Shown here in pieces: positions 36,024-42,540 of a DNA stretch of 64,000 nt. A program made the translations under genes and the position numbers. Each line of letters starts with the position of its first letter. Position 1 is the stretch's first letter. The notes under the pieces were generated by a model, which was not told the origin of the DNA, searched no databases, and saw nothing but the letters and a program-made list of their open reading frames with translations. Source of the DNA: an uncultured Planctomycetota bacterium (GTDB lineage Bacteria > Planctomycetota > Planctomycetia > Isosphaerales > Isosphaeraceae); NCBI GenBank assembly GCA_963823665.1, contig CAWGMQ010000005.1, positions 1,728,001 through 1,792,000 on the forward strand, given 5' to 3'.

Positions 36024-38213
36024 TCAGGTGATGCGATTCCCCTTCGGCGAAATGGTGAGGATATCGGTCTGTGCCAGGGAAACGCCGGACGTATCATCCA
36101 CGCCACCGGCGAAGACCTGGATTCGTCCCCCTTTGGGAAATGTCTGTTTACCCGCAAGCAGCATGGTCACGGAGTTACTCGTCAGATCGGCTGCGGGAAT
36201 CGTGAAGCCGACACTCGCGTATACGGGTACTTTGGTCTTGATTTTCCGTTTGCCCACTTTCGTGGTCACCGTCTTGATGTTCTTGAGTACTTCAATCTCG
36301 TAATTTGCGCCATTAGCGAGTGACGTCTGATCCATGCCGGTGCTGAACGTGATCGTGTAGCCTGAGACCGTCGGCTTGCCGGTCGGTTTGTGGGTTTTCT
36401 TGTTAACCTTCTGAGTAAGGACGACCGATTCACTGACGATCGTTGGTGGCGGAGGAGGGGGCGGGGGCGGAGGAGCGGGCGGCGGCGGCGGTGGGGGCGC
36501 GACCGTCACGTTGAAGAGATTCGTCGTGGTCGAGCTCAATGACCCCGAGCTGATTCCTAGCGCGTAGCCGTCGCCTGGCTTGTTGAGCGATAACCCGCTA
36601 AACGTCACGGAGGCCGGCGTCGCACTCGCCGGTGAGATGCTGAGGCTGGTTGTGCCGCTCAATACAGTTCCGGCGCCCCCTGCATTAGTTGCCAGGGTTA
36701 CCCTCACGGTTCCTGCGAAATTCGGGTCGACGTTGTTGAAGGGATCCTCCGCGGCAACCGTGAAGTCAATCCCGCCGCCGGTGGAAAACGGGCCTGTCGG
36801 CTCGCTCGTCACGACCAGCTTGGTAGCCGCGGCCGCCGACACGCTGAACGCGCCGGTGGTCACGGCCAAGGGCGCTCCTGTCCCGGTGCTCGCCGCCTGG
36901 AGCGCGTAACCGGCAACTGCTTTATCAAGCGTCAGTGTTGAGAATGTCGCAACGCCCTTCACCGCCGGCACACTGAAATTCCCGCCCACCGTGCTCGAGC
37001 CACCGGTCGGCACACTGGCCACCGAGGCCGTCACGGTGCCATTGAAGAGCAGGTCGACGATACCCGCGCCATACTCGCCCGTGACCGTCATGCCAAAGTC
37101 TTGCCCGGCCGTGACACCCGCGGGCGGGGTCGTCACGACGAAGTGGGGCTGAACATTCAAGTTCACGACCCCAATCGCACCGCCGGCGTCGGCGAACCAC
37201 ACGTTCCCGTCAGGCCCGGCCGTGATCGCCACCGGATTGGGGGTTGTGACAACGTTAGTCGGGATGGAAAGCGTCTGCGTGATTGCAGGGGTGGCAGGGT
37301 CGATCTGATCGATCGTGCCCGCGGTCGTCCCGTTGCTGGTCACTGCAACCCAGATATTGCTGTCCGGCCCCGTCGTGATTCCGAACGGTTCAGTCGACGC
37401 CGGCAGTGGGATCTCTTGAACTGCGTATGGGGAGCTCTTGTTGACGATGCCGATGGCGTACGAGTTGTAAGCGGTCCCAGCAGAATTGCGGTTGCCCGCG
37501 ACATACCAGATGTTGCCGTCGGGACCGACCGTGAGATCAAACGGCTGTTCGCTCGTTCCGCCCGGAAGCGGCACCTGGTTTACGAGACTTCCGTTTGCCG
37601 GGTTGAATATCGCGATTCCGCCCAATTCCGCGGCCCAGAGATATCCGTCGGGCCCGAAAACGATTTGTGACTCGAATCCCGCTCCCATCCCCGCGGGCGC
37701 AGGAAACTCCGTGATCTGGCCGGTCGTCGGATTGAGCTCGGCGAGCTTGTCGGCCAATGCCTCCGTGAACCAGATATCGCCGTCGGCAGATGTGATTCCA
37801 ATCGGGCCTGCGTTCGCGCTCATTCCAGCGGAACTGCCGAAGTTTTGGATGGGTTGCCCGGTGTTGTTCGGATTGAACATTCCAATCGCATTGACCGTTG
37901 GGTTCGATTCCGTGAACCACAGGTCGCCGTTCGGCCCTGATGTGATCTGCGCGAGACTCGCGCTGGCCGGCAACCCGCTCGAAAACGTGTTGATCACATG
38001 AGTTGTGGCGTCAATCCTCCCGATGGCATTGCCGGTTTGCTCGATGAACCACACATTGCCGTCAGACCCGGTCGTGATCGCCGTCGGCAGAACGGTCGAG
38101 CTCGAAATAGGGAACTCGGTGATCGTGGCCAGCAGCGTGCGCGGCTCAAGCCACTCCAGTACGGGCCGGCGCCTTTGTCTCTTGGTCCACCGAGTCGTTC
38201 GCGCAGCGTGCAT
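36024..38213 (-). CDS. Extracellular Vgb-like beta-propeller protein with Ig-like domains and poly-Pro linker
   Basis: Planctomycete extracellular motif RRRPVLEWLEPRTLLA; repeated ITxGPDGNxWF units; AEDPFNN Ig-like repeat; long Pro run at about 36445-36500; start uncertain (38213-38282). Confidence 0.82.
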   Translation of the reverse strand: MHAARTTRWTKRQRRRPVLEWLEPRTLLATITEFPISSSTVLPTAITTGSDGNVWFIEQTGNAIGRIDATTHVINTFSSGLPASASLAQITSGPNGDLWFTESNPTVNAIGMFNPNNTGQPIQNFGSSAGMSANAGPIGITSADGDIWFTEALADKLAELNPTTGQITEFPAPAGMGAGFESQIVFGPDGYLWAAELGGIAIFNPANGSLVNQVPLPGGTSEQPFDLTVGPDGNIWYVAGNRNSAGTAYNSYAIGIVNKSSPYAVQEIPLPASTEPFGITTGPDSNIWVAVTSNGTTAGTIDQIDPATPAITQTLSIPTNVVTTPNPVAITAGPDGNVWFADAGGAIGVVNLNVQPHFVVTTPPAGVTAGQDFGMTVTGEYGAGIVDLLFNGTVTASVASVPTGGSSTVGGNFSVPAVKGVATFSTLTLDKAVAGYALQAASTGTGAPLAVTTGAFSVSAAAATKLVVTSEPTGPFSTGGGIDFTVAAEDPFNNVDPNFAGTVRVTLATNAGGAGTVLSGTTSLSISPASATPASVTFSGLSLNKPGDGYALGISSGSLSSTTTNLFNVTVAPPPPPPPAPPPPPPPPPPTIVSESVVLTQKVNKKTHKPTGKPTVSGYTITFSTGMDQTSLANGANYEIEVLKNIKTVTTKVGKRKIKTKVPVYASVGFTIPAADLTSNSVTMLLAGKQTFPKGGRIQVFAGGVDDTSGVSLAQTDILTISPKGNRIT

Positions 38214-38899
38214 CCACACGAAGAGATCACGGGGTAACCGCGATTGATCCGACGCCTTCATGACGAGCTCCGCGACAATCAAGCAACCGGGCCTCGTGGA
38301 CGTGGCGAAGAAAGGGATCCCGGTTCGCTTTCGAGCAGTTTGGAAAACTTAGAACGCCAATCCGCCATCATCGTAAGCGAATCTCTAGGCGCATGCAACC
38401 TACCATCTGAGCCACCCGCATTCCGACCGAGCCGGGCGTCACAATCGTTGTGCCCCTGAATGGATCGACCAAGCCGATTCCAACAGACATCTGCGACGTG
38501 TTGCAATAAATCGACGAGTGAGCGGCATGTCCCGTATTTTCAACATCGGGCCGGTTGCGCTCGAGCAGGCCAAAACCAGCCGCCTGCGCGCTACATCGCG
38601 AGTGAACTGCTCGCACTCGAACGCTCATCGCCCACACTGAATTCACGCATCCATGCTAGTCCTTTGCTGATCCTTAACCTCTTTTTGCTTAATGGCTTAG
38701 AGCATTTGTCGCAGCCAATTTCCAAAACCACATGGGGTGACGTATTCCATTGACGTCACGCCGAGCTGGGCCAGGCCGGCGGGATGAGCAGACCTGGAGA
38801 CAAGGTCGACTTGGACAACGTTCCCTTTTCCATAAAGTCTTGTGGAGTAGGCTTTGGGGGAAAGTCGCAGGTCTAGCCGGCGGCCGATTCTCCGAGGTC

Positions 38900-39760
38900 A
38901 GTCATTCGGATCGTCATCGATAATGACCACACGCACTGAACTCCGACTGCCACCCAACTAACGTAGTGCGTTGACTGGTAGCGGAAAGGCGCAGTCCTGA
39001 GAGCAAGACTCGTTCGTCTATCCAGGCTTCCGTGTGGTTTTCAACCAACAACACGCTTTTTTGTTTGAAATCCGAGTTCCGATTGGCTATCAGTAGAAGC
39101 CGCGATGTTCTGGCAGGCTGTAGTTTCCATCGAAAAACCGAGGATGTTACGTCTGTGGCCTTGGAGTCCAGGAGATGACCTGATATGATCTTTTCGCGAC
39201 TTTGAGCTAACCGCGCCGTACTCGTGCGGCACGGAGTTTCGGAGTCGCCGATTGTTCATGTTGACACGCATCTCCAGGCAATCCGGATGGGACACGGTAG
39301 GTGACGCGTAGCAGGACACCGCTCCTTCTCCCGGCGATGTTGACTCTTTGCCTCATGACCAATGAACCGGCCGGACAAGGATCACCTATGACCAAGCAAT
39401 ACCGAAATCGGGCGTCGGTCTGTTAGTGATCGTGGTGGAGCTTGGACGCGAGCCCGGGCGTCCTGTTGTCGTGATAGTCCCGGCGTCTTACTCCTGCTCA
39501 GCCGGAAACGGTGTTGTAACAACATCGGAGCGAGCGCAGTGGAGGAGTCAGAGAGGAACGGAAAACTTTCGCTCGTTGTTTCGCCCGCGAGTCCCATGCT
39601 GTTTGGTCTTACCTTCCCACCGTTTTTGGCTGGATCAGCCAGCATCAACGGTCACCGGCTACCTGGGACTGCAACTCGACGCTTGATGGGCAGCTTGCTC
39701 ATCGGGAAGCTTGGCGCCGGGATCGATCTGATCGAGTTGCGGCATTCCAAGGCAGATCAC
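38900..39760 (+). ncRNA. Candidate large multi-domain structured RNA or 5' leader upstream of the PEP-CTERM gene
   Basis: No convincing ORF. Nested helices: 38925-33/39031-39, 38945-50/38991-96, 39171-77/39269-75, 39196-205/39239-48, 39310-16/39492-98, 39353-59/39468-74, 39380-85/39426-31, 39444-49/39458-63, 39509-16/39520-27, 39531-36/39570-75, 39590-96/39664-70, 39671-79/39732-40. G-U wobbles favour the + strand. Confidence 0.55.
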
Positions 39761-39803
39761 TCCGTCCAAACCGTGTCGACATCAAACTTCTAGGAGTTCC
39801 GAA

Positions 39804-40502
39804 ATGAAGAGAAGAGTTTTATTCCTTGCATTAGCTGCGGGTTTTGTAGTTTTGGGCTTGGCTGCCCAAGACGCCCGCGCGGGACAAATCATTCTCCCAA
39901 CGACATTGGACACGTTGTTGCCATCCGGGAACTACGCCGTCGTCGTTGGCGCGGAGACGTTGACGTTCTCGAGCTTCACCTATGCGGCAAGCTCTGTCCC
40001 GACAGGCTCTGCGCCCGCGGCGTCGAGCATCACCGTCAGCCCCTTCGCGGTCGGGAACGAGACCGGGTTCAGCCTGAATGGAACATTGAGCGCACCGGCA
40101 AACACGTTGGTTGACCTGACGATTACTTACATCGTGACGGCGCCCGCGGGTCAGCTACTCAATGATGCTGTCTTGGTGACTGCCGGAGGTAGCTTTGGCG
40201 GTACCGGCACCTACACCGTCGACGAGACGCTTGCCAACCCAATCACCTTTGCGACGGTCGGGACCTTGAGTGCATTCACTGGGAGCCCCACCGACAGCAC
40301 GACGTTTGCGGGCATTAACTCGCTCTATGTTACCAAGGACATCTATCTCAGTGGCGGCACCAAAGGTGTATCGCTTTCTGCGGTCACCCAAGGGTTTTCC
40401 TCCACCGGTGTCCCCGAGCCCACCTCATTGGCGCTCCTCGGCATCGGCATGACCGGATTCCTTGCGTTCCGCCGTTTCTTCAAGAAGACTTCGGTCGCTT
40501 GA
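39804..40502 (+). CDS. PEP-CTERM sorting-domain surface protein
   Basis: AGGAG RBS (39792-96), signal peptide MKRRVLFLALAAGFVVLGLAAQDARA, Thr/Ser/Gly-rich body, C-terminal VPEPTSLALLGIGMTGFLAFRRFFKK. Confidence 0.93.
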   Translation: MKRRVLFLALAAGFVVLGLAAQDARAGQIILPTTLDTLLPSGNYAVVVGAETLTFSSFTYAASSVPTGSAPAASSITVSPFAVGNETGFSLNGTLSAPANTLVDLTITYIVTAPAGQLLNDAVLVTAGGSFGGTGTYTVDETLANPITFATVGTLSAFTGSPTDSTTFAGINSLYVTKDIYLSGGTKGVSLSAVTQGFSSTGVPEPTSLALLGIGMTGFLAFRRFFKKTSVA

Positions 40503-40526
40503 ATCAGGCACACTAACCCAAGGCGT

Positions 40527-40624
40527 TCACGGCAACCCTGACCGAAGAATCCGTGATCAGCCGACCCGCTAACTCACACCAAGTCGGTTCGGAAGCATCA
40601 CTTACGACCACCACGGACTGATGC
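40527..40624 (+). other. Three tandem stem-loops with 17-18-nt C/A-rich loops in the PEP-CTERM 3' UTR
   Basis: TCACGG/CCGTGA (40527-56), GCCGAC/GTCGGT (40560-88), GCATCA/TGATGC (40595-624). Confidence 0.55.
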
Positions 40625-40640
40625 GCCGACAAAGAGAAAG

Positions 40641-40683
40641 ACGGCAAGAGGGGTCTGAGCACCCTTCTTGCTGTTTTTTTTTT
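40641..40683 (+). terminator. Rho-independent terminator
   Basis: ACGGCAAGAGGGGT-ctgagc-ACCCTTCTTGCTGT hairpin followed by a long T tract. Confidence 0.85.
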
Positions 40684-40894
40684 CGTACGCCAGCGCAGCC
40701 TTTTTCTAACCCATCGAGCGCATTTTTAAAGAGCCATATTGAGTATTGGCTGAAGGCCCGTTTCCACAACCTTTTATAGCACAGGAATTCACCCCGCGAG
40801 TAGACTTGCTCTTGTCTTTCGGCTTGTCTCGCCATAAGTTTCCGTTCTGCTGATTTTGTTGATTTGCCCACATTTCCCACCTGTGGCATCAGCC

Positions 40895-42540
40895 GTGACC
40901 AAGGACGCCTACGAGGCCTATGCCGAGTTGATCCGTCGCGCCGCGAGATGGCCGTGCTGGGCTCGTGTTCCTCTCTGCTGGGATGGGACGAGCAGACCTT
41001 CATGCCCGACGGAGGGGCGGGCCATCGCTCTGCTCAGATGGGCCTGCTCGCCGGGTTGCATCATGAGCGGGCGACGGATCCCATGATCGGGGAGTTTCTT
41101 GCCGTTGTTGAGAGTTCGGACCTCATCGCCGAGCCCGGATCACCGGCTGCGGTGAACGTGCGAGAAATTCGCCGAAGCTACGACCGACGTATCCGACTGC
41201 CGCGCAACCTGGTCGAAGAACTGGCACGCACGACCTCTCTGGCGCAGCCTGAGTGGGTCGCCGCCCGGTCGGCTCGCGATTTCGCCCGGTTCCGGCCGTG
41301 GTTGGAGAAAATTATCCAACTAAAGCGCCAAGAATCGGCCTGCCTCGGCGGTCAGTTGGCAACTTCTCACCACGAACCCGGTCAATCTCAGCCAGCCCGT
41401 TCCGCAGTCAGGGCCGGCTCGAGTGCCGGTCTGTTCATTTACGATCCGCTTCTCGATGAGTACGAGCCTGGGACAACGACGGAGCAGTTGGCGGTCGTCT
41501 TCCAGGCGCTGCGGCGCGAACTCGTGCCGCTTGCCGCGAAGGTCGCTGAGGGGAGCCTGGAGCGCGCGCAAGCGCCGGCTGCTCCCGGAGCCAATTCCAG
41601 CAATATGGGGTCGCCGCGGTCGGCGGCGATTCTAACCCGCCTTTACCCGCGGGATCGCCAGCAAGTCTTCGGTGAAGCGGCCGCCGCCGCCGTCGGCTTT
41701 GACTTTCAGCGCGGGCGGCTGGACGTAACCGCCCACCCGTTTTGCTCGGGTATCGGGCCGGGCGATTGCAGAATCACCACGCGCTACGACGAGCACAACT
41801 TCAACGATGCATTTTTCGGGATCTTGCACGAAGTCGGCCATGGCCTCTACGAGCAGGGCCTTGATCCGAACCATTACGGCACACCGATGGGCGAAGCCGT
41901 TTCACTCGGTATCCACGAGTCGCAGTCGCGTCTGTGGGAAAACGCGGTTGCCCGGAGCCTTCCTTTCTGGAGCTACTGGTTCCCGATCGCGCGGCGAGTT
42001 TTTCACGAGGCCCTCGCCGATGTCACGCTGGACGAGTTCCATGCCGCGGTTAACCACGTTGCCCCGTCGCTGATCCGCGTGCAGGCGGATGAGGTCACGT
42101 ACAATCTGCACATCATCGTTCGCTTCGAGATCGAGCAGGCACTGTTAACCGGCGACCTGCCCGTCACCGAGCTTCCCGCGGCCTGGAACCAGAAATACGA
42201 AGAAGTGCTGGGAGTCAAGCCACTCAATGATGCGGAAGGCTGCCTCCAGGACATTCACTGGAGCGCAGGGCTCATCGGCTACTTTCCGACCTACACGCTT
42301 GGCAATCTCTATGCGGCCCAGCTTTTCGCCCAGGCCCAGGCCGAGCTGGGTGGGCTTGACCAAGGCTTCGCACAGGGTGACTATAGGGCACTGCTGGCCT
42401 GGCTACGAGCGAAAGTTCATCGCGAAGGCCAGCGGCGCCGGCCTGTGGACCTGATCGAGCACATCACCGGCTCGAAGCCCGACCATCGCCCGCTGATCGC
42501 GGCGCTCACGAAGAAATACTCCGAGCTGTACGGCATCTAG
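40895..42540 (+). CDS. Carboxypeptidase M32 (Taq-like); frameshift near the N-terminus (about 40942)
   Basis: [68 protein letters not shown]; likely true start GTG 40895 ([16 protein letters not shown]) is in another frame. Confidence 0.9.

What the first reader, a model, noticed from the sequence alone, without database searches (positions are those of the whole stretch)
38900..39760. About 850-nt densely base-paired non-coding region: candidate undescribed large structured RNA in front of a PEP-CTERM gene
Seen: the roughly 1.5-kb gap between the Vgb-like gene and the PEP-CTERM gene has no credible ORF, and its last ~850 nt tile into successive nested domains. D1: GACCACACG/CGTGTGGTT enclosing GACTGC/GCAGTC. 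D3: a long rod, GGAGATG/CATCTCC > TGATATGA/TCATGTTG > GCGACTTTGA/TCGGAGTCGC > GCCGTA/TGCGGC. D4: a multibranch domain, AGCAGGA/TCCTGCT > GACT/AGTC > TCATGAC/GTCGTGA enclosing GATCAC/GTGATC and GGACGC/GCGTCC. Then hairpins CGGTGTTG/CAACATCG and CGAGCG/CGCTCG. Finally two domains that abut exactly at 39670/39671 (AGTCCCA/TGGGACT enclosing ACCGTT/AACGGT and TGGCTG/CAGCCA; GCAACTCGA/TCGAGTTGC enclosing GATGGGCA/TGCTCATC), as expected for coaxial stacking. Many non-Watson-Crick positions are G-T on the + strand, which suits an RNA read in the direction of the PEP-CTERM gene; the last domain ends about 50 nt before its RBS. Established: bacteria carry a few large ncRNA classes of this size (e.g. GOLLD, ROOL, OLE), but I recognise no landmark of these or of tmRNA, RNase P or introns. 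Inference: a new large ncRNA or an unusually long regulatory leader controlling a surface protein. Caveat: single 6-7-bp stems arise by chance; the nested tiling is the signal.
Basis: partly seen in the sequence, partly recalled or inferred. Interest (0 to 1): 0.85.

Follow-up and report, generated by a model that had tools for sequence, protein, structure and literature searches.

The report
Kissing-loop leader of PEP-CTERM mRNA
The stretch is mostly the long untranslated front end of the message for one cell-surface protein gene; it carries a small, strongly conserved knotted RNA core shared by many uncultured planctomycete relatives and matching no catalogued RNA family, and it most likely controls how stable or how well translated the message is, rather than being one giant free-standing RNA.

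Summary
The stems are present, but the region does not fold better than shuffles as a whole (z -1.6), and most of the proposed tiling is not conserved. What is real is a ~700-nt 5' leader (about 39100-39803) of the PEP-CTERM gene behind conserved tandem promoter-like sites. A long-range helix then closes a variable 7-300-nt domain about 80 nt before the start codon. The core occurs in 29 of 121 family genomes, nearly always before the same PEP-CTERM gene type. Contigs from RNA libraries join leader and gene. No Rfam match, no coding signal. D1 lies upstream of the promoter; D3, D4's outer stems and D7's outer stem are unsupported. Best reading: an mRNA-stabilising and translation-setting leader for an abundant surface protein; an orphan switch and 5'-3' UTR pairing remain open. 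The scan noted sequence-unrelated structured PEP-CTERM leaders in other genomes before.

The parts
39034..39047 (.).
   Evidence: Similar letters at this place in a few homologs, by eye; D1 pairing not conserved. Inference, weak.
39054..39093 (+). Promoter-like site P1: T-tract, -35 TTGAAA (39065-39070), 17-nt spacer, -10 TATCAG (39088-39093); predicted start near 39100
   Evidence: A -35/17/-10 pattern lies within 650 nt upstream of the core in 23 of 31 long loci, against 1 on the reverse strand and 1.0 in shuffles (pattern derived from these loci). The generic promoter scan did not flag it. Start not mapped.
39161..39189 (+). Promoter-like site P2: TTGGAG, 17 nt, extended -10 TG-n-TATGAT; 94-98 nt behind P1 in the five loci where both patterns matched
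   Evidence: activity not shown
39100..39803 (+). Predicted 5' untranslated leader, about 700 nt
   Evidence: Contigs of close relatives in an RNA library cover 39113-39325, 39302-39738 and 39453-39877; non-coding
39171..39275 (+).
   Evidence: local z -4.5; not conserved
39401..39419 (+). Core hairpin H1 (5 bp, 9-nt loop)
   Evidence: 4 of 5 pairs essentially invariant in 93 sequences; outer pair A-U or G-C
39408..39457 (+). Kissing-loop pseudoknot PK1: 39408-39413 with 39452-39457
   Evidence: 3 and 2 independent compensatory changes at two pairs; a third pair changed in one further copy; PK1 was not in the search model
39431..39438 (+). Core linker motif, complementary to 3' UTR loop 40608-40615; could also pair with the 3' arm of H3
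   Evidence: no clean covariation
39444..39463 (+).
   Evidence: 2 + 2 independent compensatory changes
39477..39723 (+). Long-range helix P3 (39477-39487 with 39713-39723) closing a variable domain
   Evidence: 8 bp or more in 59 of 88 leaders; kept with wholly different letters in diverged members and as a short hairpin when the domain is deleted
39509..39706 (+). Variable domain with partly conserved helices: H3 39509-39527, 39590-96/39664-70, 39619-24/39647-52, 39682-89/39699-706; purine-rich GGA cluster about 39538-39563
39792..39796 (+). Shine-Dalgarno AGGAG; a possible anti-SD at 39759-39763 is only weakly supported
39804..40502 (+). 232-aa secreted PEP-CTERM protein; one of at least 25 PEP-CTERM matches in the genome and the only one with this core
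   Evidence: PF07589 and TIGR02595 above cut-off
40522..40624 (+). Structured 3' UTR: hairpin U1 (about 40522-40562) and U2 (40595-40624) with loop motif at 40608-40615
   Evidence: recurrent in homologs by eye; not tested for covariation apart from the loop motif
40638..40681 (+). Intrinsic terminator-like hairpin and T-run
   Evidence: folds at -41.6 kcal/mol over 40621-40700, and homologous contigs end a median 139 nt past the stop; not flagged by the simple scan

Best explanation
A monocistronic, probably very abundant mRNA for a surface protein starts at tandem sigma-70-type promoters and carries a 600-700-nt leader. Shown by comparison: a two-hairpin kissing-loop core, and a helix (P3) that loops out a swappable domain so that the core sits at a nearly fixed folded distance from the ribosome-binding site (P3's 3' arm ends about 70-90 nt before the start codon in long and short leaders alike). 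Inferred: this compact fold, probably with a protein partner, shields the message from RNase E/G-type decay and sets the rate of translation initiation, as long leaders do for S-layer genes. Untested: any effect on half-life or translation.
For: Covariation of PK1 and H2 and of P3. The core is the one part kept in all members, even when only about 55 nt lie between it and the start codon. Association with a PEP-CTERM gene: 71 of 73 pattern hits and 22 of 23 newly inspected model hits. 68 short contigs end 4-279 nt (median 139) past the stop, at the terminator, and 11 of 13 with P2 begin no further upstream than P1's -10 box, as transcripts would. A relative's contig in an RNA library bridges leader and gene. 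No terminator-like site in the leader. RNase E/G is present. Analogy: Lactobacillus S-layer genes have two promoters and a long 5' UTR that gives 14-15 min half-lives (PMC3666127, passages read).
Against: No functional data. Whole leaders fold no better than shuffles (mean z -0.93 for 31 of 91 leaders). Near-invariance of the core's paired letters is more than a generic stabiliser needs and fits a specific binding partner. In this genome the core lies about 300 nt from the predicted 5' end, not at it. RNase J was not found (genome 92% complete), so a roadblock against a 5' exonuclease has no known target. RNA origin of the metagenome contigs is inferred from their ends only, and DNA can be present in RNA libraries. 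RNAalifold on 44 sequences found only H1 and H2, with no covariation.
Confidence: 0.5

Rival explanations
1. The core is the sensor of an undescribed riboswitch or protein-triggered switch. Binding fixes the kissing-loop state against an alternative hairpin (39412-39416 with 39445-39449), and the change is relayed through P3 to the ribosome-binding region.
For: Loop-loop pseudoknots of this size are typical of aptamers (established knowledge, recalled). The alternative hairpin is kept in all homologs of the alignment tested. Tandem cores with different kissing sequences occur in G001. c-di-GMP riboswitches precede PEP-CTERM genes in Methylophaga (PMC12530212, passages read).
Against: Few conserved unpaired letters for a pocket. 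No terminator in the leader; the anti-SD helix is weak (15 of 28 changes keep it, none compensatory). No Rfam riboswitch match even at loose thresholds.
Confidence: 0.2
2. Closed-loop mRNA: the core presents its linker (39431-39438) to pair with a 3' UTR hairpin loop (40608-40615), so that full-length messages are protected or translated differently.
For: In the 24 leaders that share the window's linker motif, 19 pair with their own 3' UTR better than with 90% of out-group UTRs. A second clade has a different linker and a matching 9-11-nt complement in a different 3' hairpin loop (L031, L069, L079). Precedent: icaR 5'-3' UTR pairing (PMC3868564, abstract and outline read).
Against: Among the other 53 leaders only 9 reach that level (about 5 expected). 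Flanking letters do not covary in the main group, and one member changed the linker without the loop (L104). The linker can also pair inside the leader. Kin are not independent.
Confidence: 0.15
3. The leader is mainly a CsrA/RsmA-controlled 5' UTR whose helices display GGA sites.
For: 10 CsrA matches in the genome; ANGGA 165 observed vs 120 +/- 10 expected over 91 leaders.
Against: CANGGA is not enriched (35 vs 31). The GGA cluster lies in the dispensable domain, not in the core loops; short members lack it.
Confidence: 0.07
4. An independent large ncRNA (processed out of the transcript, possibly forming multimers through the kissing loops).
For: Long-range helices and kissing loops are features of OLE, ROOL and GOLLD (PMC12286853, passages read). 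Length from core to start codon is near 400 nt in most members.
Against: Always attached to the same gene type, no own terminator, most of the length is dispensable, covariation is sparse outside a few helices, no tRNA nearby, none in viral contigs.
Confidence: 0.05
5. The conserved blocks are DNA sites (repeated GCGTC-type boxes or enhancer sites), not RNA.
For: Three similar boxes lie within 80 nt; proteobacterial PEP-CTERM genes have conserved upstream DNA motifs (PMC1569441, passages read).
Against: Compensatory changes between two separate loops and across 240 nt, and many G-U changes, have no DNA explanation. The blocks lie downstream of the predicted promoters.
Confidence: 0.03

Closest known systems
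Long stabilising 5' UTRs of Lactobacillus S-layer genes (slpA; PMC3666127)
   Same: Abundant surface protein, two promoters, long structured untranslated leader, single gene with its own terminator.
   Different: Those leaders are described as stabilising secondary structures; here there is a family-wide kissing-loop core, a long-range clamp and a swappable domain, and stabilisation is not shown.
c-di-GMP riboswitches before PEP-CTERM genes in Methylophaga (PMC12530212)
   Same: Cis-acting structured RNA before PEP-CTERM genes; two-hairpin tertiary fold.
   Different: No match to the Rfam models; Watson-Crick loop-loop pairing; no clear expression platform.
GOLLD, ROOL, OLE large ncRNAs (PMC12286853)
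   Same: Several hundred nt, pseudoknots and kissing loops.
   Different: Not a stand-alone gene, no phage or tRNA context, sparse covariation, most of the length dispensable, no Rfam match.
icaR mRNA 5'-3' UTR pairing, Staphylococcus aureus (PMC3868564)
   Same: [quoted passage not shown]
   Different: In icaR the target is the Shine-Dalgarno site and the pairing is proven; here it is 360 nt upstream of the SD and unproven.
PrsK/PrsR sigma-54 enhancer motif of proteobacterial PEP-CTERM genes (PMC1569441)
   Same: Conserved element in the long intergenic region before single PEP-CTERM genes; that paper states that other motifs remain to be found.
   Different: That element is DNA and proteobacterial; this is RNA behind sigma-70-type sites in one planctomycete family.

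Membership tests
Any Rfam 15 family (GOLLD, ROOL, OLE, riboswitches, ribozymes, tmRNA, RNase P, introns) | Covariance-model match | tested here: not met
   0 hits at gathering score in the window, 0 at E up to 10 in 38200-40900, 0 at E up to 1 in 19 homologous loci; no tRNA or tmRNA
Large ornate ncRNA (GOLLD/ROOL/OLE kind) | Extensive covarying structure over the whole length | tested here: not met
Large ornate ncRNA (GOLLD/ROOL/OLE kind) | Stand-alone transcript with its own 3' end | tested here: inconclusive
   No terminator before the gene, contigs bridge leader and gene; processing cannot be seen in contigs
Riboswitch | Conserved structured domain in a 5' UTR of one gene class | tested here: met
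Riboswitch | Expression platform (terminator or SD sequestration) | tested here: inconclusive
   No terminator; anti-SD helix weak
Riboswitch | Ligand binding | not testable with these tools
   needs probing
Stabilising leader of an abundant surface-protein mRNA (slpA kind) | Long structured 5' UTR co-transcribed with a surface-protein gene, behind tandem promoters | tested here: met
   promoters predicted, not mapped
Stabilising leader of an abundant surface-protein mRNA (slpA kind) | Longer half-life caused by the leader | not testable with these tools
   needs a decay assay
CsrA-controlled leader | GGA sites in hairpin loops, one overlapping the SD, and a CsrA homolog | tested here: inconclusive
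   CsrA present; ANGGA enriched, CANGGA not; loop position not tested
5'-3' UTR paired mRNA (icaR kind) | Covarying complementarity between the UTRs | tested here: inconclusive
Leader peptide or decayed protein gene | Conserved reading frame and codon-position pattern | tested here: not met

The most novel reading that the evidence does not exclude
The kissing-loop core is a functional module of a new kind: it organises a bacterial mRNA into a closed loop (core linker paired with a 3' UTR loop, P3 drawing the core to the ribosome-binding site) or senses an unknown signal, so that only intact messages for the cell's dominant surface protein are stabilised and translated; the domain inside P3 is an exchangeable regulatory cassette.
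Probability: 0.25. Interest if true: 0.85.

Novelty: new variant of a known kind. Interest (0 to 1): 0.6.

Why it matters
It gives a well-populated (about 90 distinct sequences, 12 genera), uncatalogued bacterial RNA motif with tertiary covariation, tied to one surface-protein gene of uncultured Isosphaeraceae-type planctomycetes. It answers in part the open point in PMC1569441 that non-proteobacterial PEP-CTERM genes have long upstream regions of unknown content. The 63-nt core is small enough for direct probing, ligand screens and structure work, and natural deletion variants mark what is essential.

Tried and rejected
Whole-region folding z-scores: not significant. RNAalifold on 44 leaders: only H1 and H2, whose pairs my search pattern had fixed, so no evidence. 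Column-pair G-test scan: top pairs mostly not Watson-Crick, dominated by kinship. Alignment-free cognate versus non-cognate scan of 4278 window pairs: PK1 ranked first and P3 third and sixth, but the tails were symmetric (-4.6 to +4.4), so not significant overall. Unconstrained duplex search for P3's partner was noisy (17 of 91 with z below -2). In one search the rows for P3, H8 and the SD helix were off by one; one search has the corrected values. A pairing of 39558-39563 with 39760-39765 looked covarying by eye but gave 74% paired and 16 of 41 changes kept: left open. Other copies in the own genome: none. Viral contigs: 0. Outside the family: 6 of 114 sampled genomes gave model hits at E up to 1e-4, none with both hairpins before a PEP-CTERM gene; model hits weaker than 1e-5 were not counted and only one (L128, coding, false) was inspected. 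L050 is a false pattern hit in a gene. No run held the window itself (best share 0.07); the lack of cover over 38561-39082 in both runs is not evidence. Contig starts are not clearly piled just before the core. A T-box-like reading of the linker was dropped: no Rfam match and the motif is not kept in diverged members. The protein atlas gave only unnamed PEP-CTERM clusters. Literature searches showed no description of this RNA; main texts of PMC11109978, PMC8632094 and PMC5737381 do not mention PEP-CTERM or planctomycetes (term searches), but the supplements of the first and last could not be read and that of PMC8632094 was not asked for, so a listing there is not excluded.

Full report
Observation. 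The tiling is not itself a signal: the 861 nt fold at z -1.58, and only D1 and D3 stand out among 41 windows. Rfam has no match.

Homologs. A DNA search of 60 relatives found a block at about 39394-39500 in four of them, each before a PEP-CTERM gene, plus one 25-nt chance match. A pattern for that block matched 6 of 121 family genomes, 73 metagenome contigs, 6 genome contigs, all titled uncultured Isosphaeraceae or Planctomycetota, and no viral contig. 71 of the 73 contigs carry a PEP-CTERM tail downstream. A covariance model built from 52 of these cores matched 29 of 121 family genomes at E below 1e-5, in 12 genera (my count). Of 23 new loci inspected, 22 precede a PEP-CTERM gene, often beside the same M32 peptidase gene (17 of 30 genome loci by a rough motif test). 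Six of 114 genomes outside the family gave weak hits, none convincing. The own genome has at least 25 PEP-CTERM matches and two exosortase matches but one core.

Boundaries. A -35/17-nt/-10 site (P1, 39065-39093) and a second one 96 nt behind it (P2) are conserved; diverged members have a TTGACA-type site about 75 nt before the core. Such a pattern lies upstream of the core in 23 of 31 long loci against 1.0 in shuffles; the pattern was drawn from these loci, and the generic scan did not flag it. D1 therefore lies upstream of the predicted start and does not covary; D3 overlaps P2 and is not conserved. Sixty-eight short contigs end a median 139 nt past the stop, where the terminator stem begins, and 11 of 13 that hold P2 begin no further upstream than P1's -10 box. 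I read them as transcript assemblies holding leader and gene; this is inferred from their ends. In one RNA run, contigs of close relatives cover 39113-39325 and 39302-39738 whole and another bridges 39453-39877; a second study covers 39180-39347. Contigs cannot show starts or prove a single transcript.

Structure. The core is H1 (39401-39419), a 17-31-nt linker and H2 (39444-39463). The loops are complementary over six bases. In 93 sequences aligned to a model that did not contain this pairing, two loop-loop pairs show 3 and 2 same-branch compensatory changes (0.29 and 0.21 expected; p 0.0013 and 0.010), and two H2 pairs show 2 each (p 0.004, 0.014). Seventeen pairs were tested, most are invariant and say nothing, only the first survives correction, and the tree is short. 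In the 27 model hits, which include the window, one false hit and one cut hit, 95.9% of cells pair and 17 show two-sided changes against 5.8 in shuffles. A further copy changes a third loop-loop pair. The tandem cores of G001 carry different, self-matching kissing sequences. Helix P3 (39477-39487 with 39713-39723) has 8 or more contiguous pairs in 59 of 88 leaders (some are local hairpins in short leaders), scoring 21.1 against 18.4 for non-cognate partners and 15.4 and 13.9 for control windows; among 40 diverged leaders 18.6 against 16.7 (kin are not independent). It persists with unrelated letters (L112, L120, L127) and shrinks to a hairpin when the enclosed domain is lost (L017, L074). Against a grand structure: RNAalifold found only H1 and H2, the global scan had symmetric tails and leaders fold at mean z -0.93 (31 of 91 folded).

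How it most likely works. Shown by comparison: an RNA fold on the + strand, in the leader, with a fixed core and a clamp that ends 70-90 nt before the start codon whatever the insert. Inferred: P3 brings the core near the initiation region, and the fold protects and tunes an abundant surface-protein message. The nearest tested precedent is the two-promoter, long-leader S-layer gene (PMC3666127, passages). RNase E/G is present, RNase J was not found. A switch is the main rival: an alternative hairpin that excludes H1 and H2 is kept throughout and c-di-GMP riboswitches do precede PEP-CTERM genes elsewhere (PMC12530212, passages), but no platform is evident. The linker's complement sits in a 3' UTR loop in the main clade (19 of 24 above 90% of out-group controls) and a different match occurs in a second clade, but only 9 of the other 53 pass; I noted this idea before seeing an earlier scan note with a similar claim, which is not independent support.

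Comparison and novelty. Not a member of any Rfam family, not a large stand-alone ncRNA by the tests above, not the proteobacterial sigma-54 motif (PMC1569441, passages). No paper describing it came up; supplements of the large motif surveys could not be read. Earlier scan notes describe structured PEP-CTERM leaders in other lineages with no sequence likeness to this one. Verdict: a real, undescribed cis-acting RNA family, a new variant of a known kind, smaller and differently built than first proposed; function untested. Interest 0.6.

Noticed in passing
window 40522-40624 and homologs: The 3' UTR of the same gene is also structured; hairpin U1 recurs across most of the family by eye, with changed pairs.
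   Followed up: partly
window about 40900-40950: The M32 carboxypeptidase gene seems to change frame near its 5' end compared with homologs; several long-read homologs show similar shifts in their PEP-CTERM genes, so assembly error is likely.
   Followed up: no
G000 genome: Ten CsrA matches above cut-off.
   Followed up: partly
window 36024-38282 (-): Divergent gene with Vgb-like propeller repeats, far below the streptogramin lyase cut-offs; a similar gene is divergent from the leader in G001, G008 and G033.
   Followed up: partly
L014 1501-1640 (G001): Two cores in tandem, 83 nt apart, with different kissing sequences; a third copy lies 14 kb away.
   Followed up: partly
L045 and L062: Leader preceded by about three tandem repeats of roughly 90 nt and followed directly by a PEP-CTERM remnant with most of the gene missing.
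   Followed up: no
L003 1894-2983 (G008), L141, L142: Tandem PEP-CTERM genes: in G008 the second has no leader; in G089 and G067 two cores lie about 1.6 kb apart.
   Followed up: no
window 39065-39093: The P1 spacer keeps a CGAT-like motif just before the -10 box in most homologs, possibly a regulator or methylation site.
   Followed up: no
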